A stretch of DNA of 64,000 nucleotides from Candidatus Kaiserbacteria bacterium. Lineage in GTDB: Bacteria; Patescibacteriota; Minisyncoccia; Phycocordibacterales; Phycocordibacteraceae. Numbering within the stretch: the stretch's first letter is position 1; the number at the start of each line of letters is the position of its first letter. Shown here one piece after another: positions 11,642 to 56,651 of this stretch. The notes beneath the pieces are model-generated. The model saw only the letters and a list, made by a program, of their open reading frames with translations. It made no database searches and was not told the DNA's origin. Position numbers and translations under genes: made by a program. The stretch lies in NCBI GenBank assembly GCA_029288835.1, contig JARIGN010000004.1, forward strand, positions 22,313 through 86,312. Direction: 5' to 3'.

Positions 11642-12754
11642 ATGAGCCTCGGACTGATTCTCGCCGTTCTTATGCTCGTCATACTGGCGGGCTCTGCTGG
11701 CCTTTTGTATTACACCTCCGTCTTTATTCAGTCCCATCTTGCTCTCTTCATTCCTGATACGAGCAGTGCAGAATATGCGGCTATCCACCAACTTTTCATC
11801 CAACAAATTGCCCTCGTAGGCATAGGAGAGATACTTATTGTCCTTCTTGCCTTTATTTTGATTGGGTCACTTGTCGTGAGCCCACTCCGTCAGCTCGCGA
11901 AAGCTATTGCCAATTTTACTGAAGACTTTACCGTTGCACTCCCGCCGTTCTCGGGTATGGTGCCGAGCGAAGTACATTCTATTGCTGCCGCATTCCAAAC
12001 TTTCTCTGCACGCGTATCTGAAGCGCATCAAAAAGATCAAGAGATATCTCGCGTAAAATCAGACTTTATTTCAACCGTGGCGCACCAGCTCCGCACACCC
12101 CTCACGGGAATTCGCTGGGCACTTGAAGCCCTCGAAAAGGAGCCAATCACTCCTGAGCAGCTTCAGATTGTGGAAAGCGCGGTAACCAAAAGCCACGATT
12201 TAGTCGCGATTGTGGGGACCTTGCTTGATATCTCAAGCATCGAGTCAGGTAAGTTTAAATATGCATTTGTCCAATTTGACCTAAGCGAGCTCGTATCCGA
12301 GGTAGCAAAAGATTTGGAACCTATGGCCCAGAAAGCAGGTATCACTTTTTATTATGCAAAAGAAGAGGCACCGCTTCCCCTCGTGTATGGAGACCGAGAC
12401 AGGCTGAAGTGGGTGCTCAATAACCTCGTTGAGAATGCTATCCGATATACGCCGTCACCGGGAAGTGTGCATATAAGCACAGACGCAACAGCGTTACGCG
12501 TAAATGTGCGTGTGCGTGACACGGGTATAGGGATCCAGGAAGAAGACAAGGGTAATATTTTTGAACGTTTTTATCGGGGAGAAAATGCTCGCGCAAAGGA
12601 AAACCAGGGAAATGGCTTGGGGCTTTATATTGCGCGCACAATAGCTAAAGACCATGGGGGAGATCTTAATTTCATGGCAAATGAAGAAGGACCTGGCACA
12701 ACCTTTGTCCTTTCGCTTCCTGTGGCTAGTGAAGTTGCAGGGCAGGGAATGTAG
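11642..12754 (+). CDS. Sensor histidine kinase (2 TM, HisKA + HATPase_c)
   Basis: H-box SDFISTVAHQLRTPLTGI. N/G boxes NLVENAIRYT and DTGIGI. Confidence 0.8.
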   Translation: MSLGLILAVLMLVILAGSAGLLYYTSVFIQSHLALFIPDTSSAEYAAIHQLFIQQIALVGIGEILIVLLAFILIGSLVVSPLRQLAKAIANFTEDFTVALPPFSGMVPSEVHSIAAAFQTFSARVSEAHQKDQEISRVKSDFISTVAHQLRTPLTGIRWALEALEKEPITPEQLQIVESAVTKSHDLVAIVGTLLDISSIESGKFKYAFVQFDLSELVSEVAKDLEPMAQKAGITFYYAKEEAPLPLVYGDRDRLKWVLNNLVENAIRYTPSPGSVHISTDATALRVNVRVRDTGIGIQEEDKGNIFERFYRGENARAKENQGNGLGLYIARTIAKDHGGDLNFMANEEGPGTTFVLSLPVASEVAGQGM

Positions 12755-39910: not shown

Positions 39911-40825
39911 ATGGCTCTTAAACGATATAGTTTCCACATGTATCAGGTACTACTTTTCTATAAATACGTGGATGTTGCTGAGCCGGAAGCGTTGGCGCAA
40001 GCACTCCGTGCAAAAGCCCAGGAACTCTCGCTTCTTGGTCGTGTTTTGGTAGCGACAGAAGGCATTAATGGCACGCTTGAAGGAAAGACCGAGGACACGG
40101 AGCAGTTTGCGAAGTGGTTTCTGTCGAAAGAATGTGCCAATGGCATTTTTTCAGATGTAAGTGTAAAGCGCAGCGAAGGAACGGGAGACGCTTTTCCGAA
40201 GCTTTCGGTAAAAGTGCGTGAGGAAATCGTCGGCACGAAGTTTTCAAAGGAGGATGCGTGCCCGCAGGTCCGCACCGCTCCGCGTATTTCTGCCGAAGAG
40301 CTTCGTAACTGGTTTGAAAATAACGAAGACTTCACCATCATCGACATGCGTAATGACTATGAATACGCTTCTGGGCATTTCAAAGGTTCTATTGATCCAG
40401 GCCTGCAGGCCTCTCGCGACCTTCCGGAAAAGCTTCCTGAGCTCGAAGCAAAGGGTTTGAAGAAAAAGAAAGTGCTCACCGTATGCACGGGTGGCATTCG
40501 CTGCGAGAAGATGTCAGCATATCTCATGAATAATGGCTTTGAAGACGTGTACCAGCTCGAGGACGGCATCCATGGTTATATGCAAAAGTATCCTGGAAAG
40601 GATTTTGTTGGAGCACTGTATACCTTTGATAAGCGAAAGACAATGGATTTTGGAGGTGAAAGGGAAGTGGTTGGCACCTGTTATTTGTGCGAGGCAAAGA
40701 CTGAAGAATACGTAAACTGCGCTAATGACCTCTGTCACCGGCATTTCCTCGTTTGCGCAGAATGCCAAACAGGACCAAAGACCTATTGCTCCGAGCTTTG
40801 CCAATATACGAAGGCATCGGTATAG
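39911..40825 (+). CDS. trhO: tRNA uridine(34) hydroxylase TrhO (YceA, rhodanese-domain; alternative start 39938)
   Basis: LLFYKYV...GRVLVATEGINGT and CTGGIRCEKMSAYLMNNGFEDVYQLEDGI are collinear with E. coli YceA. C-terminal Cys cluster. Confidence 0.8.
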   Translation: MALKRYSFHMYQVLLFYKYVDVAEPEALAQALRAKAQELSLLGRVLVATEGINGTLEGKTEDTEQFAKWFLSKECANGIFSDVSVKRSEGTGDAFPKLSVKVREEIVGTKFSKEDACPQVRTAPRISAEELRNWFENNEDFTIIDMRNDYEYASGHFKGSIDPGLQASRDLPEKLPELEAKGLKKKKVLTVCTGGIRCEKMSAYLMNNGFEDVYQLEDGIHGYMQKYPGKDFVGALYTFDKRKTMDFGGEREVVGTCYLCEAKTEEYVNCANDLCHRHFLVCAECQTGPKTYCSELCQYTKASV

Positions 40826-43576: not shown

Positions 43577-44077
43577 ATGACTATCAATACCGTATCCCGT
43601 CTCGGAAGCGTTCTCGCCGCATTGGTGCTTGTGTTTGCAGGGATTTCCCATGCAACGCCAGCCTTTGCGTACTATGGCGCTCTTGAGGGTACCCAGCCAC
43701 TCAGTGCCGTTTGTAACGGTCGCTATGACCCAACCTGCCTTATGAAGGAAACGGCATACGCTCAGCAGCTCAATGCTCCGTATACGAGTTGGCATAATTA
43801 CCAGTATCAAGCTCCAGCACTTCCTCATACCTACGGCGTGCCGTATGTGGCTCCTACCTACGTAGCTCCGACGTACTACAACTACACGAGCTACCCATAC
43901 AGCTATAGTTACAACTACCAGTATCAGTACGTAATGCCAGCAACTTCATACTATGCTGCACCCACCTACTACACGCCTACCGCATACAGCTATGACGACT
44001 ACAATAGCTACGACTCTTATGATAGCTATGACAATTACGAAAGCTGTGGTTCCTATTCCTACAATTGCGGCTACTAA
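43577..44077 (+). CDS. Secreted Tyr-rich low-complexity protein (166 aa, ~25% Tyr) inserted between dnaK and dnaJ
   Basis: Signal peptide (cleavage near AFA-YY). Repeats PTYVAPTYY, YSYSYNYQYQY and SYDSYDSYDNY. Confidence 0.55.
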   Translation: MTINTVSRLGSVLAALVLVFAGISHATPAFAYYGALEGTQPLSAVCNGRYDPTCLMKETAYAQQLNAPYTSWHNYQYQAPALPHTYGVPYVAPTYVAPTYYNYTSYPYSYSYNYQYQYVMPATSYYAAPTYYTPTAYSYDDYNSYDSYDSYDNYESCGSYSYNCGY

Positions 44078-45284: not shown

Positions 45285-45824
45285 GTGCGCTATACTGTAT
45301 CCATGGATCAGCTAGCGCTGCAGGTATCAAACATCGCCACTAATAGCGCGCTCCACGCCTGGGCACTTCTCGATAATTTCCTCATACTCGTCCTGCTGAC
45401 GGTCATTATGATCGGCTTTTCTTATTATGGAGGCCGTGGGGGCATCATTTCCGTGCAGCTCGCGTTCTATGTCGGGTATGGGATTTACATGATTTTCCCC
45501 TTTACGAATTACTTCATCGGCTTCGGGGGAGCACCGCTTGAAAAGGCAGTCATCAGCTCAATCCTCTTTATTATTGCTTCCTTTGTGCCGTTTCTTTTTA
45601 TAAACAAAATGCTCAGCGGGGGATTTGGCATTTTAAGCTTTGTGCCGCGCTTTGTGCTTTCGCTTGCCACCGCCTGCTTCTTGATAGCACTCGCGTACCA
45701 CGTCTTTTACGTGACCCATATCTACACCTTCCCAGAACCAATGAATTCTCTCTTCTCGCCTGACCAGTACTTCTTCTGGTGGTTTATCGCACCGCTCGCT
45801 GCACTTTTCTTCCTTGTGCACTAA
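45285..45824 (+). CDS. Hypothetical polytopic membrane protein (179 aa)
   Basis: Five or six hydrophobic helices. No motif recognised. Confidence 0.5.
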   Translation: MRYTVSMDQLALQVSNIATNSALHAWALLDNFLILVLLTVIMIGFSYYGGRGGIISVQLAFYVGYGIYMIFPFTNYFIGFGGAPLEKAVISSILFIIASFVPFLFINKMLSGGFGILSFVPRFVLSLATACFLIALAYHVFYVTHIYTFPEPMNSLFSPDQYFFWWFIAPLAALFFLVH

Positions 45825-47785: not shown

Positions 47786-47792
47786 TCAAAAA

Positions 47793-48179
47793 ATGCATTT
47801 TGGTGAACACATAACAATTGATGGATACGGAGGCGACCCTGAGCTGCTCGATAACGGCGAGTTGGTGAAAAGTTGTTTTCCAGAGCTTTGCACGCTGCTC
47901 GGCATGCATCCTCTTATTGAACCCCAGGTTATTTCCGCACCCGACAACCAGATAAAAGACCCAGGTGGCTGGAGCTGCTTTGTGATCATTGCGGAAAGCC
48001 ACATTGCAATGCACACCTTCCCAAAGCGTGGTTTTATCAGTGCCGATGTTTACACGTGCCAGAATGGCCTCGAGACGGAAAAAATAAAGCAGTACTTCAT
48101 CGAAAAGTTTAAACTCCAGGAAATTGAAACAAACCTGGTGATGCGGGGCACAAAGTATCCAGAGCATAATATAATTTAG
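47793..48179 (+). CDS. speH: S-adenosylmethionine decarboxylase proenzyme, small (SpeH-type, pyruvoyl)
   Basis: IIAESHIAMHTFPKRGF with ES-H self-cleavage motif. ~128 aa. Confidence 0.75.
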   Translation: MHFGEHITIDGYGGDPELLDNGELVKSCFPELCTLLGMHPLIEPQVISAPDNQIKDPGGWSCFVIIAESHIAMHTFPKRGFISADVYTCQNGLETEKIKQYFIEKFKLQEIETNLVMRGTKYPEHNII

Positions 48180-48198
48180 TGACAAAGTATATTTATTA

Positions 48199-49278
48199 TT
48201 GTATACTAATATTGTGATTAAAATTACTGACTTACCTGAATACGCCGCGCACGAGGCTGTGCTCCGCATTGAAGATAAAGAAACGGGATTACGGGGATTT
48301 ATCGCGATACACAATACCAATCGTGGACCGGCGGTAGGGGGAACGCGCTTTTGGTACTACAAGAATGAAGAAGAAGCACTGAAGGATGCGCTCCGTCTTT
48401 CGCGGGCGATGACCTATAAATGCGCTGCAACGGATCTTCCTTACGGAGGAGGCAAGGCAGTACTCATGGCACCCAAAGACCAAGCAGCGAGCCATACATT
48501 TAAAAATGAAAAATACCTACAGTCCTATGCACGGAGGTTGGAACTTCTTGATGGGCATTTTTTTACTGGTGAGGATGTTGGCATGGATGAAAAAGATATC
48601 GGGGTTTTAGCCCGCAACTCCAGCAGCATTATAGGCAGACCTACCATTGGTGGCCTGCCTTCTCCCTATGCGGCAAGTAGCGTGTTTGAGTCTATGCGTG
48701 CAGCGCTAACGCATGCTTATGGCTCAGATTCTTTTGTAGGGCGCACCGTAGCTATAAAAGGGCTAGGAAATGTGGGTCTTGAACTGGCTCAGATGCTTAC
48801 CAAAGAGGGAGCAGAGATTATTGGCGCTGACGTGAACCCAGAAAAGGTTGCTGCGGCCCAGCGTTTACTTCTAAACTGCAAAATAGTACCCTCACACCTT
48901 ATCCATAAGCAAAAAGTAGATATTTATTCTCCTTGTGCATTAGGAGGGGACCTTACTGCTACCGTTATTGCTAGCCTGCAGTGTAGTATTGTGTGCGGTT
49001 CTGCAAATAACCAGCTTGCTACTCCAAAGGACGCCTCCCGTCTTTTTGCGCGCGGTATACTGTATGTACCCGACTATGTCGCGAACGCCGGTGGGCTCAT
49101 TACGGTAGTAGACGAGCTGCAATCAGGCGGATATGACAAAAAGCGGGTTGAGCGAAACATTATGCAAATCAGGGAAACCGTTCTCCACATCCTTTCTGAA
49201 TCAAAAAAGAAAAAAGTATCCGAAAGTATCATTGCTGATGCACTTGCGGAAAGACGCTTTCTTACGACTCACCAATAA
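48199..49278 (+). CDS. Glu/Leu/Phe/Val dehydrogenase family (leucine/phenylalanine dehydrogenase-like); TTG start, alternative GTG 48214
   Basis: GGTRFWYY...LSRAMTYKCAATDLPYGGGKAV catalytic Lys region. GLGNVG Rossmann. Confidence 0.8.
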   Translation: MYTNIVIKITDLPEYAAHEAVLRIEDKETGLRGFIAIHNTNRGPAVGGTRFWYYKNEEEALKDALRLSRAMTYKCAATDLPYGGGKAVLMAPKDQAASHTFKNEKYLQSYARRLELLDGHFFTGEDVGMDEKDIGVLARNSSSIIGRPTIGGLPSPYAASSVFESMRAALTHAYGSDSFVGRTVAIKGLGNVGLELAQMLTKEGAEIIGADVNPEKVAAAQRLLLNCKIVPSHLIHKQKVDIYSPCALGGDLTATVIASLQCSIVCGSANNQLATPKDASRLFARGILYVPDYVANAGGLITVVDELQSGGYDKKRVERNIMQIRETVLHILSESKKKKVSESIIADALAERRFLTTHQ

Positions 49279-49280
49279 CT

Positions 49281-50819
49281 ATGCCGAAGGCGAAGCATCC
49301 AGGAATACGGGCTCGAATTCCCGCGAACAAGGCGGTTGTACTCGCACGTTCTGCTTCAGCTAGTTATTGGGAACATGTACGCAAGAAAAATGCACTCGAC
49401 CTTTTTAAGAAAGCTGCCAAAGAAGTACCAGCCTATAAGAAATTTCTTGAAGAGCACGGCATACAAGCTTCAACCGTTAAGACGTGGGAGGATTTTACGA
49501 AGATACCCGCTACCAGCAAGGCGAACTATTTGCGCGTAAACCCACCCGAGTCAATTGTATGGAAGGGAAATCTTGCTCGGCCCTCTGTCTATTCGGCAAC
49601 TTCGGGATCTACTGGTACGCCTTTTTACTTTCAACGCTCTCAAAATTTAGAAGAGGAATATTCTGCACTCATTGAGCTTTTTTTCCTTTCGAACGGAACC
49701 GTGCCAAGTCCTGAATGCCCGACCCTCGTCATTATTGGCTTCGGGATGGGAGTGTGGATCGGCGGTATGTTAACATTCCGTGCCTATGAGATAGCCAGTC
49801 ACCGAGGCTATCCTGTTTCCATTCTTCCTGCGGGAGTAAATAAGAATGAAATATTGCACGCATTCAGAAACCTCGCGCCACACTATAAACAGACCATTCT
49901 TATCGGCTATCCTCCTTTTATTAAAGACATTTTGGACGAAGCTGCCCTGGAAGGCATTGATCTCAAGTCTTTACACTTGCGTCTCCAGTTTGCTGCCGAA
50001 TCATTTACGGAACAGTTTAGGGAATATGTGGGTACGAAAGCTGGAATACAGAATATCGTTCGTGACACGTTCAATGTGTATGGCACCTCCGATATTGGAG
50101 CCATGGCCTTTGAGACCCCGGTCTCCATCCTTGTGCGACGGCTTGCCTTGCAGAACCCCGAGCTCTATACCGCACTCTTTGGTTCATTACACAAGATGCC
50201 TACGGTGGCGCAATACAATCCTGCATACATGACCTTTGAGCAGTCAGAAGAAGGAGAAGTGCTTTTAACGGGGAACAGTGCCGTGCCGCTCATTCGGTAT
50301 GCGGTAGGGGACCATGGAGGAGTTCGTTCTTATGAAGAGGTTAACAGTCTCTGCAATTCCTTTGGCATTGACCTTGAGGAAGAATGCAAAAAGCACGAGG
50401 TTCCACTTTATAAGTTTCCTTTTGTCTATGTGTATGAGCGAGCAGACCTGGCCACCACCCTCTATGGCTTACAGATATTTCCACAGTACATAAAGGATGT
50501 GCTCCTCAGCGACTTTGCCCAGGAGAAACTCACGGGTAAATTCCAGCTTGCCACAAAATATGACGCAGAACAAAACCAGTTTTTAGAAATTAATGTTGAA
50601 TTGAAGAAAGGAGTTGACGCCGCTGATGCCGAATTCATTCAAGAGATTGAACACCATATTTACACAGCACTTTTGGAGAAAAGTTCGGAATTTCGAGAAC
50701 TCTCGACGTTTGTACACAATCGTAAACTTTTTGTCCTCGTATTTCACGAGGCAGGAAACGCAGAATTCTTTCCTCAAGGAATCAAGCAAAAATGGGTGCA
50801 GAAGACAGCCGTTAAATGA
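49281..50819 (+). CDS. Adenylate-forming enzyme, PaaK/coenzyme-F390-synthetase-like
   Basis: YSATSGSTGTPFYF matches the PaaK P-loop-like motif. NVYGTSDIG matches the YGxTE-like A5 motif. C-terminal GDHGG. Confidence 0.7.
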   Translation: MPKAKHPGIRARIPANKAVVLARSASASYWEHVRKKNALDLFKKAAKEVPAYKKFLEEHGIQASTVKTWEDFTKIPATSKANYLRVNPPESIVWKGNLARPSVYSATSGSTGTPFYFQRSQNLEEEYSALIELFFLSNGTVPSPECPTLVIIGFGMGVWIGGMLTFRAYEIASHRGYPVSILPAGVNKNEILHAFRNLAPHYKQTILIGYPPFIKDILDEAALEGIDLKSLHLRLQFAAESFTEQFREYVGTKAGIQNIVRDTFNVYGTSDIGAMAFETPVSILVRRLALQNPELYTALFGSLHKMPTVAQYNPAYMTFEQSEEGEVLLTGNSAVPLIRYAVGDHGGVRSYEEVNSLCNSFGIDLEEECKKHEVPLYKFPFVYVYERADLATTLYGLQIFPQYIKDVLLSDFAQEKLTGKFQLATKYDAEQNQFLEINVELKKGVDAADAEFIQEIEHHIYTALLEKSSEFRELSTFVHNRKLFVLVFHEAGNAEFFPQGIKQKWVQKTAVK

Positions 50820-50831
50820 TAGAATAGGGCT

Positions 50832-51971
50832 ATGAATACTTTCCCAAAACCAGTACTGAAAGAAGCGATTGATACACCTGAAAACCTTTTTTCTTCTTAT
50901 GAAATTAGTCGCTCACTAGACCTGTATGACGAGCTCCTAGAGGAGTTATTCTTGATTCGTAATCCGCAGTATAAATTTAACCCAAACTATACGACAGAAT
51001 TCCAGCAGTGGAAGGCTGCGTTGGAGACTGCGCAACCTGCGCTCGCGCACGGCATGTGGGCGTATTTCCCTTGGTCTAAAATAGCGGTACGGGTACTGCC
51101 TGATGCGGAACACCTTGAGCTTAGGACGGCACGAAATAAAAACCTCATTACCAAAGAGGAACAAGAAAAGTTTTATAACTCTCGCATTGCGGTTGCTGGC
51201 CTTTCCGTAGGAAGCCATGGCGCACTCACGCTCGCACTCATGGGTGGCGCTCGCACCCTTTTCCTTGCCGATCCCGACACTATTTCAGGGTCAAACCTAA
51301 ACCGCATCCGCTATGACTATACAACAATTGGCAGGAAGAAAGCGGAAGTAGCTGCTGAATATATCTACCAACTAAACCCCTATGCTGAGGTGCATCTTTT
51401 TTCAGAGGGAGTAAGTGCAGAAAATATTGATACATTTCTGGGCGGAGATGAAAAGGTGCAGCTTCTGGTGGAAGAGCTTGATAACCTTGAGATGAAGGTT
51501 CGGCTTCGCCTTGCGGCAAAAGAAAAAGGGATTCCAGTAATTATGGCCACCGATAATGGCGACGGTATTATTATGGACATAGAACGCTACGACCTTAACC
51601 CTAACACTGAGCTCTTTAATGGTGCCCTCGGTCACTTGACGATGGAAGAGTTTTCACAGTTTACCCCGAGCGACCTTCCCAAGCTTGCAACAAAGGTGGC
51701 GGGAGTAGAAGTAGTGGTGCCTCGCATGCTCTTGTCCCTTAAAGAAGTAGGAAAGACTTTGTATTCATGGCCACAGCTTGGTGACGCTGCAACTCTTTCA
51801 GGAGTAGCTATTGCGTATATTGCGCGCAAAATCATTCTTGGAGAACCAGTCCGCGATGGCAAGCACGAGATTAACCTTGATGCGATCTTTGATGCACACT
51901 ATGACTCTGCAGAAGCAGTTGCTGAACGGGAACAGGTTCGTTCAGCTTTTAAGCAGGCACTAGGACTATAG
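50832..51971 (+). CDS. E1-like (ThiF/MoeB/MccB family) adenylyltransferase with ~110-aa N-terminal extension
   Basis: RIAVAGLSVGSHGALTLALMGGARTLFLADPDTISGSNLNRIRY matches the E1 Rossmann and SNLNR motif. No CxxC pairs. Confidence 0.7.
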   Translation: MNTFPKPVLKEAIDTPENLFSSYEISRSLDLYDELLEELFLIRNPQYKFNPNYTTEFQQWKAALETAQPALAHGMWAYFPWSKIAVRVLPDAEHLELRTARNKNLITKEEQEKFYNSRIAVAGLSVGSHGALTLALMGGARTLFLADPDTISGSNLNRIRYDYTTIGRKKAEVAAEYIYQLNPYAEVHLFSEGVSAENIDTFLGGDEKVQLLVEELDNLEMKVRLRLAAKEKGIPVIMATDNGDGIIMDIERYDLNPNTELFNGALGHLTMEEFSQFTPSDLPKLATKVAGVEVVVPRMLLSLKEVGKTLYSWPQLGDAATLSGVAIAYIARKIILGEPVRDGKHEINLDAIFDAHYDSAEAVAEREQVRSAFKQALGL

Positions 51972-51977
51972 GCACCT

Positions 51978-53057
51978 ATGCAGGAAAAGATACGAGCAAT
52001 TGTCGAGAAGGCAGTATGGGCGCCTTCGGGAGACAATTCACAACCATGGGAATTTTCGTTCGTGGATGAATCAACGCTCCAGGTGCATCTCATTCCCCAC
52101 AAGGATAATAAAATACTTAATTATAAGTTGAGTGGCACGTATGTTGCTCATGGCGCATTGATTGAAAACATAGTACTTCTGGCGGGGAAAGAAGGCCTTA
52201 CTGCTTCCGTCATGCTTTTACCCGTTTCTGATGATCCATTGATTACCGCGCAGATTACTTTTAAGGAAAGTGCTTCATCCTCTAACCTTCCAGATCCGCT
52301 TGCTGAGGCAATCCCTGCACGACATACCAACAGGAAGCAGTATGAGCCAAAGCAGCTTTCTGAAGAGGCTCGAGCAAGTATCACTAAGGCTGCTGCAGCT
52401 GCTTCAGATGAAATCACTTTTCATGTACTAGAAGACAAGAAACGTATAAAAAAAGCAGCCTATGCAGAATCCCTGATACAAAAGATTGCTCTTGAGACTC
52501 CCACTCTGCATTCAATTTTCTTTTCTAATATCTTATGGAAGGAAAAGGATAATACCGGAGAGAAACAGGGTCTCTCTCTAAAAAGTATGGAACTTCCTCC
52601 ACCAGTAGAAAAACTTTTTCCGTTGCTTTCCCACTGGCCAGTCACGAAAGCATTTAACAAAATTGGGTTTTCTGCTATGGCCTCAAAAACAAATGGCGAC
52701 CTTTTTGCCTCATCACCCGCCATAGGGCTTGTTTGCGTACGGAAAGAGGAGCCTGTGCAGTACCTTGAAGCGGGCAGGGTATTTGAGCGTGTGTGGCTAG
52801 CGGCGACCGCACAAGGCGTTTCCTTTCAACCCATTAGTGGCTTACTTTTTGTAGCACGAAGGCTTGCTGCAGGGGAGACTGACGCATTAGACTCAAAGCA
52901 TTTTGATGAAATTTCACTAGCGGCGAATGACATTGCCCAAGCTTTCTCTTTGACTAATGGAGAGATACCGCTGATGATGTGTAGGATGGGATACAGCGCC
53001 GCAGCTACGAGCCGATCAAAGAGAGCTGCTCCCGTTTTCCGCACTAGCCATGCTTAG
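51978..53057 (+). CDS. Nitroreductase-superfamily protein, apparently two tandem half-domains (SagB/McbC-type dehydrogenase-like)
   Basis: WAPSGDNSQPWEF matches the nitroreductase FMN-site motif. RHTNRKQY Arg motif. 359 aa. Confidence 0.65.
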   Translation: MQEKIRAIVEKAVWAPSGDNSQPWEFSFVDESTLQVHLIPHKDNKILNYKLSGTYVAHGALIENIVLLAGKEGLTASVMLLPVSDDPLITAQITFKESASSSNLPDPLAEAIPARHTNRKQYEPKQLSEEARASITKAAAAASDEITFHVLEDKKRIKKAAYAESLIQKIALETPTLHSIFFSNILWKEKDNTGEKQGLSLKSMELPPPVEKLFPLLSHWPVTKAFNKIGFSAMASKTNGDLFASSPAIGLVCVRKEEPVQYLEAGRVFERVWLAATAQGVSFQPISGLLFVARRLAAGETDALDSKHFDEISLAANDIAQAFSLTNGEIPLMMCRMGYSAAATSRSKRAAPVFRTSHA

Positions 53058-54687
53058 CACCTTACTTTATTTTCATAATATTGACCTTTTCGTTGTTGGG
53101 ATTACGGTCGCAGGTATCGCCGTCCTAGGCTTTACTGCCTATTTTAGTAACACAAAAAATGCTACGAATGTCTCTTTTTGGCTCTTCACCCTTTCTGCTG
53201 CACTTTGGAGCATTGTAAACTACCTTTTCTACCATATTGCAAACCCCTACCTTGCTTTTTGGATTATTCGCACTGTTATTTTCCTAGCAACGTGGTTTGT
53301 ATTTTTCCTTTTTCAATTTCTTCTCGTGTTTCCTGCAGAAAAGTATATTTTTCCAAAAAAATACCTTTATGGACTTCTACCTCTCACATGTTTCATATCA
53401 TTAATGACGCTTACACCGCTAGTCTTTAATAGTATCGGATCACTCAGCAATACGGGTGCCATCGAAACAATAAATAATGGACCTGGAATATTCTTTTTTG
53501 CCCTTTTTGTCACGTTCTTAATTTTTGGAGGATTGTGGATTTTCATTAAGAAAATGCGCTTAGCGCCTAAAAGTGAAAAGGGACAGTACCGATCAATTTT
53601 GTGGGGGCTTTTTGTTACGTTTTTGTTAATTATAAGCTTCAATCTCGTCTTACCCGCGTTTTACAACAATGCTTCCTTTATTTCCCTTGGTGCACTCTTC
53701 ATACTTCCAACAGTAGTTGCCGCTGGGTATGAAATTGCTAAATATCATTTATTCAGGGTAAAAGTCTTTGCGACGTCTCTCCTTATCTTTTTGCTTTCCA
53801 TTTCTATTCTCCTCGAAGTGCTTTCTTCAGCGACTCTTTTCCAGATCATATTCAGAAGCATGGAGTTTGTCCTGGTCCTTGCCATAGGTATTTTGCTCAT
53901 CCGAAGCGTGCTTCGTGAAGTAGAGCAGCGTGAGCATATACAGGAGCTTGCTAACCAGCTTGAGTTCGCGAACAACCAGCAAGTGGCGCTCATCCATTTC
54001 ATTACGCACCAAGTTAAAGGCTTTCTTACCAAATCCCGTAATGTGTTCTCGATGGCACTCGAAGGGGAGTTCGGTCCCATTCCTGATACCTTTAAGCCGA
54101 TACTCCAGATGGGGCTTGAATCGGACACGAAAGGCGTGAATACCGTCCAGGAAATACTGAATGCATCCAATATTAAAAGCGGCAAAATTACCTACTCAAT
54201 GCAGCTGTTTGATCTCGCCGCACTGCTTTCAGAAATTATTACAACCCTTAAGCCGAATGCCGATGCAAAAAAGCTTTCACTCAAGGTGACGCTTTCTGAA
54301 AATCCTTGCGAGATCCAGGGAGATCGCATGCAGCTTGAAAATGCCTTTAAGAATATTATTGATAATGCTATTAAGTATACCCCTGCGGGTGAGGTTGCCA
54401 TTTCCTTAACCAAGGAAGGGTCACTCGTACGCATTATTGAGCAAGATACAGGCGTCGGTATCACGCCAGAAGATATGGGCAAGCTCTTCACCGAGGGTGG
54501 CCATGGCAAGGAATCTGTAAAGGTAAATGTCGACAGTACCGGCTTTGGCCTCTATATTGTGAAAAATATTATCACTGCCCATAACGGAGAGATTTGGGCA
54601 GAATCCGAAGGGGCGGGGAAGGGATCCAAATTCACTATTGAGCTCCCTATCATGCAGCCCAATACTCCTACAGCAGTAAGCGCCTAG
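53050..54687 (+). CDS. Sensor histidine kinase with ~8 N-terminal TM helices
   Basis: Multi-TM N-terminal half. H-box QVALIHFITHQVKG. N box NIIDNAIKYT, G boxes DTGVGI and GFGLYIVK. Very AT-rich. Confidence 0.8.
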   Translation: MLSTLLYFHNIDLFVVGITVAGIAVLGFTAYFSNTKNATNVSFWLFTLSAALWSIVNYLFYHIANPYLAFWIIRTVIFLATWFVFFLFQFLLVFPAEKYIFPKKYLYGLLPLTCFISLMTLTPLVFNSIGSLSNTGAIETINNGPGIFFFALFVTFLIFGGLWIFIKKMRLAPKSEKGQYRSILWGLFVTFLLIISFNLVLPAFYNNASFISLGALFILPTVVAAGYEIAKYHLFRVKVFATSLLIFLLSISILLEVLSSATLFQIIFRSMEFVLVLAIGILLIRSVLREVEQREHIQELANQLEFANNQQVALIHFITHQVKGFLTKSRNVFSMALEGEFGPIPDTFKPILQMGLESDTKGVNTVQEILNASNIKSGKITYSMQLFDLAALLSEIITTLKPNADAKKLSLKVTLSENPCEIQGDRMQLENAFKNIIDNAIKYTPAGEVAISLTKEGSLVRIIEQDTGVGITPEDMGKLFTEGGHGKESVKVNVDSTGFGLYIVKNIITAHNGEIWAESEGAGKGSKFTIELPIMQPNTPTAVSA

Positions 54688-54705
54688 TTCTGCTATACTC
54701 GACCT

Positions 54706-56006: not shown

Positions 56007-56651
56007 ATGGCGTCAATACCTGATACACAACATTCGTATGCTATACAAATGTATGAGTCAGGTAACAGTGCTCAAGAAGTGGCAAATTACTATACCGTAA
56101 GCGTGGGAGCTGTCTTTTATATATTGAAGAAATATAAAATACCAAGGAGAAGTACGAGGGATTCGAATGCTATCAAGTATGATCGGGCAGCACCTTCGTT
56201 TATTCTCAAAGAAAACCTTACTCAGGATCAAAAAGAGTTAAAAACTATTGGAGTGATGCTGTATTGGGCTGAAGGGTATAAGATTGGAAAAAATACTATA
56301 GATTTCGCTAACTCAGACCCGTCAATGGTCGTTTTGTTCTGTAAATTTTTACGTCAGATATGTGGAATTACTGAATCTAAAATTCGTTGTTCTTTGTACT
56401 GTTATGACACCCAAGATTTAGCAGTACTTCATTCTTATTGGAGTTCGCTTCTTAGTGTTCCTCTAGCGCAGTTTACAAAACCCTTTATTAAAAAGGCTGA
56501 TGAAGACAGCAAAAGAGGGCCAAGAATGGTGCATGGCCTTGTGCATGTTCGATATTGTGATAAAAAGTTATTACGGCAGGTACTTAATTGGATTGCTGAA
56601 TATCAAATCGAAAGCGTCGGTGGCGGAGTGGTCAATCGCATTGGACTGTAA
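56007..56651 (+). CDS. HTH + LAGLIDADG-like (homing-endonuclease-like) protein; 3' end overlaps tRNA-Tyr by 38 nt
   Basis: N-terminal HTH (YAIQMYESGNSAQEVANYYTVSVGAVFYILKKYKIP). LYWAEGYKIGKNTIDFANSDPSMVVLFCKFL resembles the LAGLIDADG-type motif block. AT-rich gene. Confidence 0.45.
   Translation: MASIPDTQHSYAIQMYESGNSAQEVANYYTVSVGAVFYILKKYKIPRRSTRDSNAIKYDRAAPSFILKENLTQDQKELKTIGVMLYWAEGYKIGKNTIDFANSDPSMVVLFCKFLRQICGITESKIRCSLYCYDTQDLAVLHSYWSSLLSVPLAQFTKPFIKKADEDSKRGPRMVHGLVHVRYCDKKLLRQVLNWIAEYQIESVGGGVVNRIGL

What the first reader, a model, noticed from the sequence alone, without database searches (positions are those of the whole stretch)
47786..54690. Low-GC six-gene operon: SpeH-like decarboxylase, Leu/Phe dehydrogenase, PaaK-like adenylating enzyme, extended E1-like enzyme, tandem nitroreductase, multi-TM histidine kinase
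The six ORFs run head-to-tail on the + strand with gaps of 2-20 nt or short overlaps (53050 vs 53057), so they are probably one transcript. The block is visibly AT-richer than the flanking ABC exporter and tyrS (roughly 38-46% versus about 55% GC by eye). Foreign composition plus tight packing suggests a horizontally acquired functional module.

The enzyme set is unusual: a pyruvoyl-type decarboxylase, an amino-acid dehydrogenase that makes 2-oxo acids, an acyl/aryl-adenylate-forming ligase, an E1-like adenylyltransferase and an FMN-dehydrogenase-fold protein. It matches no standard pathway I can name. It resembles scaffolds that adenylate and then oxidise or cyclise a peptide or small carboxylate (MccB-like or TOMM-like chemistry). 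An MsbA-type exporter lies directly upstream and a membrane sensor kinase directly downstream.

I consider this the best candidate for an undescribed modification or biosynthesis system in the window.
Basis: partly seen in the sequence, partly recalled or inferred. Interest (0 to 1): 0.8.

Follow-up and report, generated by a model that had tools for sequence, protein, structure and literature searches.

The report
Oxazolone-type synthase plus sensor kinase module
This candidate-phyla-radiation (Patescibacteria) genome carries a widely conserved five-gene set: four enzymes related to the recently discovered bacterial oxazolone synthetases, joined to a membrane sensor kinase that co-evolves with two of them, which makes it a plausible but unproven small-molecule signalling system in bacteria thought to make almost nothing.

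Summary
The tightly packed operon is real. The GC dip is real but small: 45.5% against 50.2%, not 38-46% against 55%.

The unit is five genes, not six:
- a Leu/Phe-type amino-acid dehydrogenase
- a PaaK-fold adenylating ligase
- a ThiF-like enzyme
- an Acg-type tandem nitroreductase (FDO)
- a multi-pass histidine kinase

This order recurs across Patescibacteria (at least 582 species genomes). Of 40 loci with full flanks, 40 have ThiF, 36 have FDO and 36 have the kinase. A HisC-like aminotransferase sometimes replaces the dehydrogenase.

The SpeH-like decarboxylase, the ABC exporter and tyrS belong to the chromosomal backbone. They are also present in relatives that lack the module.

ThiF plus FDO is a split homologue of the Rv1355c/TrzS-OxzB-TyzBC oxazolone synthetases, and is fused in one relative. 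The hallmark N-acyl-amino-acid synthase is absent, and the PaaK-like ligase probably replaces it. This is not MccB/TOMM chemistry.

The kinase's sensor domain tracks ThiF/FDO more closely than it tracks its own kinase core. It is almost always found next to them (41 of 43 loci).

Best reading: CoA-independent synthesis of an oxazolone or dehydro-amino-acid signal, with a cognate sensor. This is a new variant of a known kind. The chemistry and the sensing are inferred, not shown.

The parts
48199..49278 (+). NAD(P)-dependent Leu/Phe/Trp-type amino-acid dehydrogenase (amino acid <-> 2-oxo acid). Its slot is filled in other genomes by a HisC-like aminotransferase.
   Evidence: PF02812 and PF00208 hits. 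Best solved relatives are LeuDH 6acf (265 bits) and TrpDH 5b37 (237 bits). Catalytic Lys74 and Lys86 are invariant. Pocket residues Gly124 (40/40) and Leu300 (36/40) are conserved. A dehydrogenase or aminotransferase is present upstream of the ligase in 31 of 40 loci with full flanks. The aminotransferase best matches hisC, 225 bits. A possible alternative start is the GTG at 48214.
49281..50819 (+). PaaK-fold (ANL superfamily) adenylate-forming ligase, strongly diverged from true phenylacetate-CoA ligases. Proposed to make the N-acyl amino acid.
   Evidence: Only 55 bits to the PaaK model, whose cut-off is 646. AF2 model has pLDDT 83.5. Foldseek best matches are PaaK1/2 and BT_0428, then AjiA1, the PaaK-family AMP-ligase entry 6siw, and ClxA. 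The family has at least 1483 proteins and at least 582 species genomes, essentially all Patescibacteria.
50832..51971 (+). ThiF/E1-like adenylating enzyme, equivalent to the N-terminal half of Rv1355c/TrzS-type oxazolone synthetases. Proposed ATP-dependent cyclase.
   Evidence: NF005901 (Rv1355c family) profile positions 39-353, 288 bits; the next-best model scores 90 bits. It is 38% identical to residues 62-337 of a fused Rv1355c-family protein. Invariant residues are R101, N102, G123, G127, D147, N155, N157, R158, K170, D217 and K222. The protein contains no cysteine at all. Present in 40 of 40 loci with full flanks. Fused to the nitroreductase in L091.
51978..53057 (+). Acg-type tandem-repeat FMN nitroreductase (FDO), equivalent to the C-terminal half of Rv1355c/TrzS. 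Proposed C-alpha/C-beta desaturase.
   Evidence: NF005901 profile positions 374-712, 181 bits; Acg-family model, 140 bits. It is 24% identical over its full length to residues 374-702 of the fused protein, and 32% identical to the C-terminal half of the CPR fusion P0242. AF2 model has pLDDT 93.4. The best PDB match is 2YMV (Acg homologue), E 1.9e-15 and TM 0.69/0.75; the next match has E 1e-6. The APSxxNxQPW motif, R115 and R119 are conserved.
53050..54687 (+). Multi-pass membrane sensor histidine kinase. The sensor spans about residues 1-285 (53050-53900, 8-9 hydrophobic segments). It is followed by an H-box at His320 and a HATPase domain.
   Evidence: PF16927 HisKA_7TM and PF02518 hits. Hydropathy profile and H-box. 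The start overlaps the nitroreductase stop by 8 nt. Present in 36 of 40 loci with full flanks. In the reverse search seeded with the sensor domain, 41 of 43 loci have FDO upstream, 39 have ThiF plus FDO and 37 have the ligase. Sensor-domain divergence tracks ThiF and FDO (Mantel 0.45 and 0.49) more than its own kinase core (0.25).
47793..48179 (+). Class 1b pyruvoyl AdoMetDC-like (SpeH-like) decarboxylase. An adjacent and probably co-transcribed neighbour, judged NOT to belong to the module.
   Evidence: PF02675, 89 bits; TIGR03330, 73.5 bits against a cut-off of 75.65. The ES|H self-cleavage site and the DVYTC motif are kept. Homologues across Parcubacteria are 60-89% identical. The gene is present at the same backbone position in module-free relatives L088-L090. 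It is absent from the syntenic module locus L009 and from nearly all other module loci.

Best explanation
The finding is a five-gene module conserved across Patescibacteria. It joins a variant oxazolone-synthetase pathway to a dedicated membrane sensor kinase.

Proposed mechanism:
1. The dehydrogenase (or, in other genomes, a HisC-like aminotransferase) converts a hydrophobic or aromatic amino acid into its 2-oxo acid. Direction and substrate are inferred.
2. The PaaK-fold ligase adenylates a carboxylic acid, probably that 2-oxo or aryl acid. It transfers the acyl group directly to the amino group of an amino acid, making an N-acyl amino acid without acyl-CoA. It would thereby replace the GNAT-type N-acyl-amino-acid synthase of every characterised oxazolone cluster. 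This step is inferred.
3. The ThiF-like enzyme adenylates the carboxylate of the N-acyl amino acid, and the amide oxygen closes the ring to a 5(4H)-oxazolone. The Acg-type flavoenzyme then desaturates C-alpha/C-beta. Homology to TrzS, OxzB and TyzBC is shown here; the activity is inferred.
4. The product is an oxazolone or its hydrolysed N-acyl dehydro-amino acid. It is sensed by the 8-9-helix sensor domain of the kinase translated immediately downstream, which signals through single-domain response regulators encoded next to the module in many genomes. This would give an autoinducer-like circuit. This step is inferred from linkage and co-variation only.

The SpeH-like decarboxylase, the MsbA-like exporter and tyrS are chromosomal backbone genes.
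For: Conservation:
- Of 40 genome loci with full flanks, seeded by the ligase, ThiF is present in 40, FDO in 36, the kinase in 36, all three in 34, and a dehydrogenase or aminotransferase in 31.
- In the reverse test, 43 metagenome loci seeded by the kinase sensor domain gave FDO upstream in 41, ThiF plus FDO in 39, the ligase in 37 and none of these in 2.

Homology to oxazolone synthetases:
- The ThiF and FDO proteins cover the Rv1355c-family profile colinearly: positions 39-353 (288 bits) and 374-712 (181 bits).
- They are 38% and 24% identical to a fused actinobacterial Rv1355c-family protein.
- In another CPR genome the two are fused into a 738-aa protein inside the same module.
- The FDO model's best PDB hit by nine orders of magnitude is Acg homologue 2YMV. 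The TrzS authors report the same nearest structure for TrzS (PMC12856293).
- The closest solved ThiF relative is TcdA, itself an oxazolone-forming dehydratase (PMC12596934).
- The ThiF adenylation residues are invariant, including the Asp of the ExD motif, which aligns with the CDSLD Asp of the fused Rv1355c-family protein and which I take, without having aligned the M. smegmatis sequence, to be the equivalent of TrzS Asp217. The protein has no cysteine.

The ligase:
- It has the PaaK fold. The next-ranked structural relatives after PaaK1/2 and BT_0428 are AjiA1 (6wuq), the PaaK-family AMP-ligase entry 6siw (which I recall as NatL2) and ClxA (9s45), all PaaK-family adenylating enzymes. That these couple aryl acids without CoA in benzoxazole pathways is recalled knowledge, not checked here.

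Sensor coupling:
- The nitroreductase stop and the kinase start overlap by 8 nt.
- Mantel correlations of pairwise identity over 48 loci: ThiF-FDO 0.70, sensor-ThiF 0.45, sensor-FDO 0.49, sensor against its own kinase core 0.25, sensor against the ligase 0.10 (not significant).
- The syntenic relative L090 lacks the enzymes. Its kinase core is 65% identical to the window's, but its membrane domain gives no hit when searched alone.
Against: - No enzyme activity, product or ligand has been tested. The substrate of the ligase and its acceptor (amine or CoA) are unknown.
- The N-acyl-amino-acid synthase that defines every characterised oxazolone cluster is absent.
- Each half scores below the NF005901 equivalog cut-off of 476 bits.
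- The characterised FDO step needs O2, whereas many Patescibacteria live in anoxic groundwater.
- No response regulator lies next to the module in this window, and only a minority of loci have one adjacent.
- Co-variation of the sensor with ThiF/FDO could come from co-transfer of neighbouring DNA rather than from ligand-receptor matching.
- Mantel values are affected by alignment quality in membrane segments.
- The dehydrogenase pocket signature (Gly124/Leu300 as PheDH-like) rests on recalled literature that I could not verify here.
Confidence: 0.55

Rival explanations
1. Regulated uptake, salvage or detoxification pathway. The kinase senses an external (for example host-derived) aromatic acid or amino acid. 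The enzymes activate and transform that compound for the cell's own use. The product is not a signal.
For: Two-component kinases commonly regulate adjacent catabolic or stress operons. PaaK relatives are classically catabolic CoA ligases. A dehydrogenase or aminotransferase is typical of amino-acid catabolism. Acg-type flavoenzymes belong to stress regulons in mycobacteria (PMC10404671). Patescibacteria depend on scavenged metabolites.
Against: The ThiF/FDO pair has no known catabolic role, and its only characterised relatives build oxazolones. There is no oxidative decarboxylase or thiolase, and no further catabolic gene is conserved nearby. The ligase is only 17-18% identical to PaaK and scores 55 bits against a cut-off of 646. 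The co-variation of the sensor with ThiF/FDO specifically, and not with the ligase, is not predicted by simple substrate induction.
Confidence: 0.2
2. One reading: a peptide-modifying (RiPP) system of the MccB or TOMM type. The E1-like enzyme adenylates a ribosomal peptide's C-terminus or backbone, and the flavoenzyme oxidises the resulting ring.
For: E1-like enzymes and nitroreductase-fold dehydrogenases co-occur in TOMM/McbBCD systems. PaaA (pantocin) appears among weak PDB hits of the ThiF protein at 26.8 bits. An ABC exporter lies next door.
Against: There is no hit to SagB-type dehydrogenase (TIGR03605) or cyclodehydratase (TIGR03882) models at E<=0.01, and no YcaO. Among 83 loci no conserved free-standing ORF of 50 aa or more exists; every recurrent small ORF is an antisense shadow of the ligase or ThiF gene. 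Gaps within the operon are 2-19 nt. The best matches are to the small-molecule enzyme family Rv1355c/TrzS (288 and 181 bits) and to Acg. The exporter is a backbone gene in the module-free relative L090.
Confidence: 0.06
3. A ubiquitin-like or sulfur-carrier activating system (ThiF/MoeB type), with the other genes being unrelated neighbours.
For: PF00899 hit and weak hits to ThiF and MoeB models at 45-68 bits. A rhodanese-domain gene lies about 10 kb upstream, at 39911-40825.
Against: The ThiF-like protein has no cysteine at all, so it can form no persulfide or thioester and has no zinc CxxC motifs. No ThiS, MoaD or other Ubl-sized conserved ORF is present. The rhodanese gene is UPF0176-type and is not linked in other loci. 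The Rv1355c-family score is three to four times higher than any ThiF or MoeB score. The fixed five-gene order across hundreds of genomes contradicts the idea of unrelated neighbours.
Confidence: 0.03

Closest known systems
TrzAS (Rv1356c/Rv1355c) N-acyl tryptazolone pathway of Mycobacterium tuberculosis, M. smegmatis and Rhodococcus (PMC12856293)
   Same: A ThiF-like ATP-dependent cyclase plus an Acg-type FMN desaturase. The window's two proteins align colinearly with the two halves of the family profile and with a fused family member. The Asp of the ExD motif in the ThiF-like protein, which aligns with the CDSLD Asp of a fused Rv1355c-family member, and FMN-site arginines in the FDO are conserved. 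The nearest solved structure for the flavoenzyme is the same, 2YMV.
   Different: The proteins are split here rather than fused, although a CPR relative has them fused. There is no TrzA-type N-acyltransferase. A PaaK-fold ligase and an amino-acid dehydrogenase or aminotransferase are present instead, and a dedicated sensor kinase is attached. Identity is only 38% and 24%, and the phylum is different.
OxzAB (Pseudoalteromonas rubra tyrazolone synthetase; de Rond et al., bioRxiv 10.1101/2020.06.11.147165) and TyzACB (M. tuberculosis; PMC10404671)
   Same: The same two-enzyme logic of cyclise then desaturate. TyzB and TyzC are separate adjacent proteins, like the window's pair. The organisation is operon-like, with overlapping or near-overlapping genes.
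   Different: Both depend on an acyl-CoA-using N-acyl-amino-acid synthase (OxzA or TyzA), described as the hallmark enzyme also in Planctomycetota clusters (PMC12479983). That enzyme is missing here. No sensor kinase is part of those clusters.
PaaK-family coupling ligases of benzoxazole pathways (AjiA1 6wuq, PaaK-family AMP-ligase entry 6siw, which I recall as NatL2, ClxA 9s45)
   Same: They rank next after PaaK1/2 and BT_0428 among the fold matches of the ligase model. From recalled knowledge, they adenylate an aryl acid and transfer it directly to a nucleophile on a second small molecule without CoA. That is the role proposed here.
   Different: Sequence identity is only 15-18%. The window protein is about 80 residues longer. 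Its partners are ThiF and FDO, not an amidohydrolase. The substrate is unknown.
Synthase-receptor quorum-sensing loci with multi-pass kinases (cqsA/cqsS, luxM/luxN, agrBDCA). A functional analogy only.
   Same: Signal-synthesis genes lie directly next to a polytopic membrane histidine kinase. As in agr specificity groups (recalled knowledge), the synthesis genes and the sensor half of the kinase vary together while the kinase core follows a different history.
   Different: There is no sequence relationship. The chemistry is different. No ligand, secretion or density dependence has been shown.

Membership tests
ThiF-FDO oxazolone synthetase systems (OxzAB / TyzACB / TrzAS) | ThiF-like adenylating cyclase with a conserved ATP/Mg-binding Asp and arginine finger | tested here: met
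   NF005901 N-terminal half, 288 bits. 38% identity to a fused family member, including the WAYxPW, SNLNR and ExD motifs. D147, N155, N157, R158, K170 and D217 are invariant in 70 CPR homologues.
ThiF-FDO oxazolone synthetase systems (OxzAB / TyzACB / TrzAS) | Acg-type tandem nitroreductase (FDO) fused to or directly adjacent to the ThiF gene | tested here: met
   A 6-nt gap separates the two genes in the window. NF005901 C-terminal half, 181 bits; Acg family, 140 bits. Foldseek best hit is 2YMV, E 1.9e-15. The two are fused in L091/P0242. FDO is adjacent in 36 of 40 loci.
ThiF-FDO oxazolone synthetase systems (OxzAB / TyzACB / TrzAS) | Adjacent acyl-CoA-dependent N-acyl-amino-acid synthase (OxzA/TyzA/TrzA/NasY), the hallmark enzyme | tested here: not met
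   No acyltransferase family hit in any ORF from 43.5 to 57.3 kb. No recurrent extra gene family in 83 loci apart from the ligase, ThiF, FDO, the kinase, the dehydrogenase or aminotransferase, and response regulators.
ThiF-FDO oxazolone synthetase systems (OxzAB / TyzACB / TrzAS) | The product is an N-acyl 4-arylidene-oxazol-5-one formed in an ATP- and O2-dependent way | not testable with these tools
   Needs heterologous expression or in vitro assay with LC-MS.
NCBIfam NF005901 'Rv1355c family protein' (equivalog) | Whole-protein score at or above 476 bits | tested here: inconclusive
   The model describes a fused 722-position protein. The split halves score 287.6 and 181.5 bits, each below the cut-off and 469 in simple sum.
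Phenylacetate-CoA ligase PaaK (TIGR02155) / coenzyme F390 synthetase (TIGR03335) | Score above the curated cut-off (646 / 459 bits) | tested here: not met
   54.6 and 37.7 bits. The fold is PaaK-like, but identity is 17-18% and the C-terminal domain barely matches.
TOMM / McbBCD-type azole synthetase | SagB/McbC-type dehydrogenase, YcaO or cyclodehydratase domain, and a precursor peptide gene | tested here: not met
   No TIGR03605, TIGR03882 or YcaO hit at E<=0.01. No conserved free-standing small ORF.
ThiF/MoeB sulfur-carrier or Ubl-activating E1 | Catalytic or zinc-binding cysteines and a ThiS/MoaD/Ubl partner gene | tested here: not met
   The 379-aa protein has zero cysteines. No Ubl-sized conserved ORF is present. 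ThiF and MoeB models score 45-68 bits against cut-offs of 152-449.
Class 1b S-adenosylmethionine decarboxylase (SpeH, TIGR03330), for the first gene only | Pyruvoyl-forming ES|H cleavage site, catalytic Cys, and a score at or above 75.65 bits | tested here: inconclusive
   The ESH and DVYTC motifs align with T. maritima and A. aeolicus AdoMetDC. PF02675 scores 88.9 bits, above its cut-off. TIGR03330 scores 73.5 bits, just below its cut-off. Substrate not testable.
Anti-phage defence systems (PADLOC) | A significant match to a defence-system protein model | tested here: not met
   Only generic E1-domain hits of 35 bits or less and HATPase hits.

The most novel reading that the evidence does not exclude
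Patescibacteria (CPR) possess a phylum-wide, self-contained chemical signalling system. An ATP-only, CoA-independent pathway builds an oxazolone or dehydro-amino-acid autoinducer from two scavenged amino acids: dehydrogenase or aminotransferase, then PaaK-like amide ligase, then ThiF cyclase, then FDO desaturase. A cognate 8-9-helix sensor kinase detects the product. Signal 'specificity types' arise because ThiF, FDO and the sensor domain are exchanged or co-evolve as a unit, independently of the kinase core, in the manner of agr groups. At the same chromosomal site, other lineages carry a different enzyme cassette (LPG_synthase_C-type) with a different sensor domain on a similar kinase core.
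Probability: 0.25. Interest if true: 0.85.

Novelty: new variant of a known kind. Interest (0 to 1): 0.65.

Why it matters
- **Biosynthesis in CPR bacteria.** These ultra-small, mostly episymbiotic bacteria have very little biosynthetic capacity and no established small-molecule signalling. A biosynthetic module conserved in hundreds of species and wired to its own sensor would be one of their few dedicated secondary-metabolic traits. It would also be an experimentally tractable entry to how they sense kin or hosts.
- **Oxazolone chemistry.** It would extend the oxazolone-synthetase family, so far described only with acyl-CoA-dependent N-acyltransferases in Pseudomonadota, Actinomycetota and Planctomycetota. 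The extension is an acyl-CoA-independent route that fits organisms lacking fatty-acid and CoA metabolism.
- **Physiological role.** The role of oxazolones is an open question raised by the TrzAS authors. A hard-wired receptor next to the synthase would make the signalling hypothesis directly testable.

Tried and rejected
- **Exact look-ups.** Look-ups of the window's own ThiF and ligase proteins found no recorded contig, so the context came from homologues.
- **Literature.** Searches for Patescibacteria plus oxazolone, CPR plus quorum sensing plus histidine kinase plus PaaK, and ThiF plus nitroreductase plus phenylacetate-CoA ligase found no description of this module. The library lacks most subscription papers, so absence is not proof.
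- **PheDH signature.** A search for the PheDH Gly124/Leu307 literature found nothing. That point stays as recalled knowledge.
- **Sensor alignment.** The broad 24-sequence sensor-domain alignment was too diverse to seed a metagenome scan. A narrower 10-sequence alignment worked. The reverse test therefore covers only sensor domains at least about 34% identical to the window's.
- **Promoters and terminators.** Promoter-like sites are not enriched over shuffles (21 against 17 +/- 4). The one in the AdoMetDC-dehydrogenase gap (48179-48207) is only suggestive. There is no convincing + strand terminator inside the operon.
- **Defence system.** The PADLOC scan was negative.
- **Recent horizontal transfer from outside the phylum.** Rejected, because the module's GC follows host GC from 29% to 60%.
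- **The decarboxylase as a tailoring step.** Rejected as a conserved part of the module. A lineage-specific role cannot be excluded.
- **The ABC exporter as the product's exporter.** Ambiguous. It is adjacent in 7 of 40 loci but is also a backbone gene in module-free L090.

Full report
**Observation**

The region 47.8-54.7 kb holds six + strand ORFs packed head to tail:
- AdoMetDC-like, 47793-48179
- Glu/Leu/Phe/Val-family dehydrogenase, 48199-49278
- PaaK-like ligase, 49281-50819
- ThiF-like enzyme, 50832-51971
- tandem nitroreductase, 51978-53057
- histidine kinase, 53050-54687

The gaps are 19, 2, 12 and 6 nt, followed by an 8-nt overlap.

The compositional claim holds only in weakened form. 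The block is 45.5% GC against 50.2% for the rest of the window, which places it in the lowest 1.4% of same-size windows. GC3 is 40-46% against 53-58% in the neighbouring genes. Only the membrane part of the kinase falls below 40%.

**Organism and spread**

The closest homologues of the ligase (59-65% identity) come from Kaiserbacteria, Paceibacterota and other Patescibacteria (CPR). More than 1,400 related proteins were scored. A scan of one genome per species returned at least 582 genomes that encode a relative, essentially all labelled Patescibacteria.

**What travels together**

I ran tblastn with the window's proteins against 85 fetched loci, and separately clustered all ORFs by all-against-all comparison. 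Both show one recurrent order. Zero to three single-domain response regulators come first. Then comes a dehydrogenase or a HisC-like aminotransferase, followed by the PaaK-like ligase, ThiF, the nitroreductase and the multi-pass kinase.

Among the 40 loci with complete flanks:

| Gene | Loci with it |
|---|---|
| ThiF | 40 |
| Nitroreductase | 36 |
| Kinase | 36 |
| All three | 34 |
| Dehydrogenase or aminotransferase | 31 |

A minority have the order nitroreductase-ThiF, with a more divergent nitroreductase.

Every recurrent small ORF is an antisense shadow inside the ligase or ThiF gene. No free-standing conserved ORF of 50 aa or more exists, and the gaps inside the operon leave no room for one.

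**What does not belong**

The AdoMetDC-like gene keeps the ES|H self-processing site and the catalytic Cys motif. It is far more conserved across Parcubacteria (60-89% identity) than the module proteins are (typically 30-50% identical to the window's).

In three relatives it sits on the same chromosomal backbone:
- dnaK - dnaJ - (ABC exporter) - ... - AdoMetDC - [other genes] - kinase - tyrS

None of the four enzymes is present there. Conversely, locus L009 is syntenic with the window (ABC - dehydrogenase - ligase - ThiF - nitroreductase - kinase - tyrS) but has no AdoMetDC gene.

The decarboxylase, the MsbA-like exporter and tyrS are therefore backbone genes.

A sigma-70-like match lies exactly in the AdoMetDC-dehydrogenase gap (48179-48207). 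This fits a separate promoter, but such matches are not enriched over shuffles.

**Identity of the core enzymes**

*ThiF-like and nitroreductase proteins.*
- They match, colinearly, the N-terminal (profile 39-353, 288 bits) and C-terminal (374-712, 181 bits) halves of NCBIfam NF005901, 'Rv1355c family protein'. These scores are well above those for any ThiF, MoeB or E1 model (90 bits or less) or for the generic Acg model (140 bits).
- Against a fused 708-aa family member from a Mycolicibacterium plasmid they are 38% identical (residues 62-337) and 24% identical (residues 374-702).
- A search of 1.8 billion cluster representatives found about 924 relatives at E<=1e-30, a mix of about 360-aa and about 740-aa proteins.
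- One of these, a 738-aa fusion 52% and 32% identical to the window's two proteins, sits in a CPR genome inside the same module, between the ligase and the kinase.

*The flavoenzyme.* Its AF2 model (pLDDT 93.4) matches the Acg homologue 2YMV at E 1.9e-15 (TM 0.69/0.75). The next nitroreductase scores E 1e-6.

*The ThiF-like protein.* It keeps the adenylation residues invariant across 70 homologues. It has no cysteine at all. Its closest solved relative is TcdA, which itself forms an oxazolone on tRNA.

**The known chemistry**

Rv1355c is TrzS. With the N-acyltransferase TrzA it makes N-acyl tryptazolones. The ThiF domain performs an ATP-dependent cyclisation of the N-acyl amino acid, and the flavin domain then performs an O2-dependent desaturation. 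2YMV is its nearest solved structure (PMC12856293).

OxzAB of Pseudoalteromonas and TyzACB of M. tuberculosis do the same with tyrosine (bioRxiv 10.1101/2020.06.11.147165; PMC10404671; review PMC12596934). Planctomycetal and other clusters share the trio, with the N-acyl-amino-acid synthase called the hallmark enzyme (PMC12479983).

**What is different here**

No N-acyl-amino-acid synthase or other acyltransferase is present in the window or conserved in the related loci. Two other enzymes are fixed partners instead.

*The ligase.*
- It has the PaaK fold (model pLDDT 83.5; Foldseek E 1e-21 to PaaK1/2).
- It is only 17-18% identical to PaaK and scores 55 bits against PaaK's cut-off of 646.
- Its next structural neighbours are AjiA1, the PaaK-family AMP-ligase entry 6siw (which I recall as NatL2) and ClxA. 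From recalled knowledge, these are PaaK-family enzymes that couple an adenylated aryl acid directly to a second small molecule without CoA.

*The upstream enzyme.*
- It is a Leu/Phe/Trp-type dehydrogenase. LeuDH scores 265 bits and TrpDH 237 bits, and the catalytic lysines are invariant.
- It has an invariant Gly where LeuDH has Ala (40 of 40) and a Leu where LeuDH has Val (36 of 40). I recall this as the phenylalanine-dehydrogenase signature but could not verify it here.
- In other genomes a HisC-like aminotransferase fills the slot.
- Both enzymes interconvert an amino acid and its 2-oxo acid.

*Inference.* The simplest reading, which is an inference, has three steps:
1. A 2-oxo or aryl acid is made from one amino acid.
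2. The ligase adenylates it and joins it to the amino group of a second amino acid.
3. The resulting N-acyl amino acid is cyclised and desaturated.

Such an ATP-only route suits organisms that generally lack fatty-acid and acyl-CoA metabolism. That last point is established knowledge about CPR genomes and was not tested here.

**The kinase**

The protein has 8-9 hydrophobic segments in residues 1-285, an H-box at His320 and a HATPase domain. Three observations tie its sensor half to the enzymes.

1. *Translational overlap.* Its start overlaps the nitroreductase stop.

2. *Reverse test.* I seeded a metagenome scan with the sensor domain alone and kept the 43 loci with at least 5 kb of upstream sequence. 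The nitroreductase was upstream in 41, ThiF plus nitroreductase in 39, the ligase in 37, and none of them in 2.

3. *Co-variation.* Mantel correlations of all pairwise identities over 48 loci:

| Pair | Correlation |
|---|---|
| ThiF - nitroreductase | 0.70 |
| Sensor - ThiF | 0.45 |
| Sensor - nitroreductase | 0.49 |
| Sensor - its own kinase core | 0.25 |
| Sensor - ligase | 0.10 (not significant) |
| Ligase - kinase core | 0.36 |

A concrete case shows the same pattern in identities to the window's proteins.

| Protein | Syntenic L009 | L001/L006/L008/L028 |
|---|---|---|
| Dehydrogenase | 67% | - |
| Kinase core | 68% | 45-51% |
| tyrS | 70% | - |
| ThiF | 43% | 59-68% |
| Nitroreductase | 34% | 44-47% |
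| Sensor | 40% | 51-53% |

In module-free L090 the kinase next to tyrS has a core 65% identical to the window's. Its membrane domain gives no hit when searched alone. The slot upstream holds an LPG_synthase_C-type gene.

ThiF, the nitroreductase and the sensor domain therefore behave as one evolutionary unit. The ligase and the kinase core seem to follow the genome. This pattern is expected if the sensor recognises the pathway's product. It could also reflect co-transfer of neighbouring DNA.

**Horizontal transfer**

The module's GC follows the host from 29% to 60% and is on average only 2.5 points lower. There is thus no sign of recent import from outside the phylum. Presence or absence at a conserved site, together with the mosaic identities, points to cassette gain, loss or recombination within Patescibacteria.

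**Rivals**

- *RiPP system.* No precursor gene, no YcaO or SagB signatures, and the best matches are to a small-molecule enzyme.
- *Sulfur-carrier or Ubl activation.* No cysteine in the ThiF-like protein and no carrier gene.
- *Anti-phage defence.* The PADLOC scan gave only generic domain hits.
- *Kinase-regulated salvage or detoxification pathway.* This remains a serious alternative. Nothing shown here proves that the product is a signal.

**Verdict**

The composition claim and the gene count need correction.

The core chemistry belongs to a family described between 2021 and 2025. The gene combination is what appears undescribed: a PaaK-like ligase and an amino-acid dehydrogenase or aminotransferase in place of the acyltransferase, plus a co-evolving multi-pass sensor kinase, conserved across hundreds of CPR species. 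I found no description of it in the searchable literature.

I class it as a new variant of a known kind, of above-average interest. All functional steps beyond homology are inferred.

Noticed in passing
L088 5408-6307; L090 5384-6930 (same backbone site as window 48199-53057): In module-free relatives, the slot between the AdoMetDC-like gene and the kinase-tyrS pair holds a PF09924 LPG_synthase_C-type gene (aminoacyl-tRNA-dependent transferase fold). In L090 there is also a 202-aa unknown. The adjacent kinase has a similar core (65% identical in L090) but an unrelated membrane sensor. This suggests interchangeable 'enzyme cassette plus sensor domain' units at one chromosomal site.
   Followed up: partly
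window 56007-56651 (+): A 214-aa ORF just after tyrS has the lowest GC in the neighbourhood (38.4%; GC3 32.6%) and no Pfam or NCBIfam hit. Its composition is more atypical than that of any gene in the flagged block.
   Followed up: no
window 45285-45824 (+) and 43577-44077 (+): Two ORFs of 179 and 166 aa without any family hit are interleaved with dnaK, dnaJ and the ABC exporter. Unknown ORFs of similar size occupy comparable positions in L089 and L090, so they may be conserved CPR-specific partners of the chaperone operon.
   Followed up: no
window 48179-48207: A promoter-like match (GTGACA-17-TATACT, 10/12) fills the AdoMetDC-dehydrogenase gap and overlaps the TTG start called for the dehydrogenase at 48199. 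A GTG at 48214 would give a near-leaderless transcript.
   Followed up: partly
L091 7001-9217 (CPR MAG GCA_002773695.1): ThiF and the nitroreductase are fused into one 738-aa protein within the same module. Single-domain response-regulator genes lie on the opposite strand on both sides. This is a Rosetta-stone link and shows that fusion arose, or was retained, inside the CPR lineage too.
   Followed up: yes
L011 11817-16649; L047, L056, L067, L071, L074, L085: Some module loci carry two or three tandem kinase genes, or a kinase split into two ORFs, downstream of the enzymes. This suggests duplication or decay of the sensor.
   Followed up: no
window 11642-12754 (+): A second, shorter histidine kinase (370 aa) lies elsewhere in the window. 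Its kinase domain is 32% identical to that of the module kinase. No response regulator was detected anywhere in the 64-kb window with the CPR receiver query.
   Followed up: partly
L059, L066, L069 (record titles): Module-bearing MAGs are labelled 'Gammaproteobacteria' or 'Chlamydiae' in their record titles, although the genes are typical of Patescibacteria. These are probably mis-binned or mislabelled assemblies.
   Followed up: no
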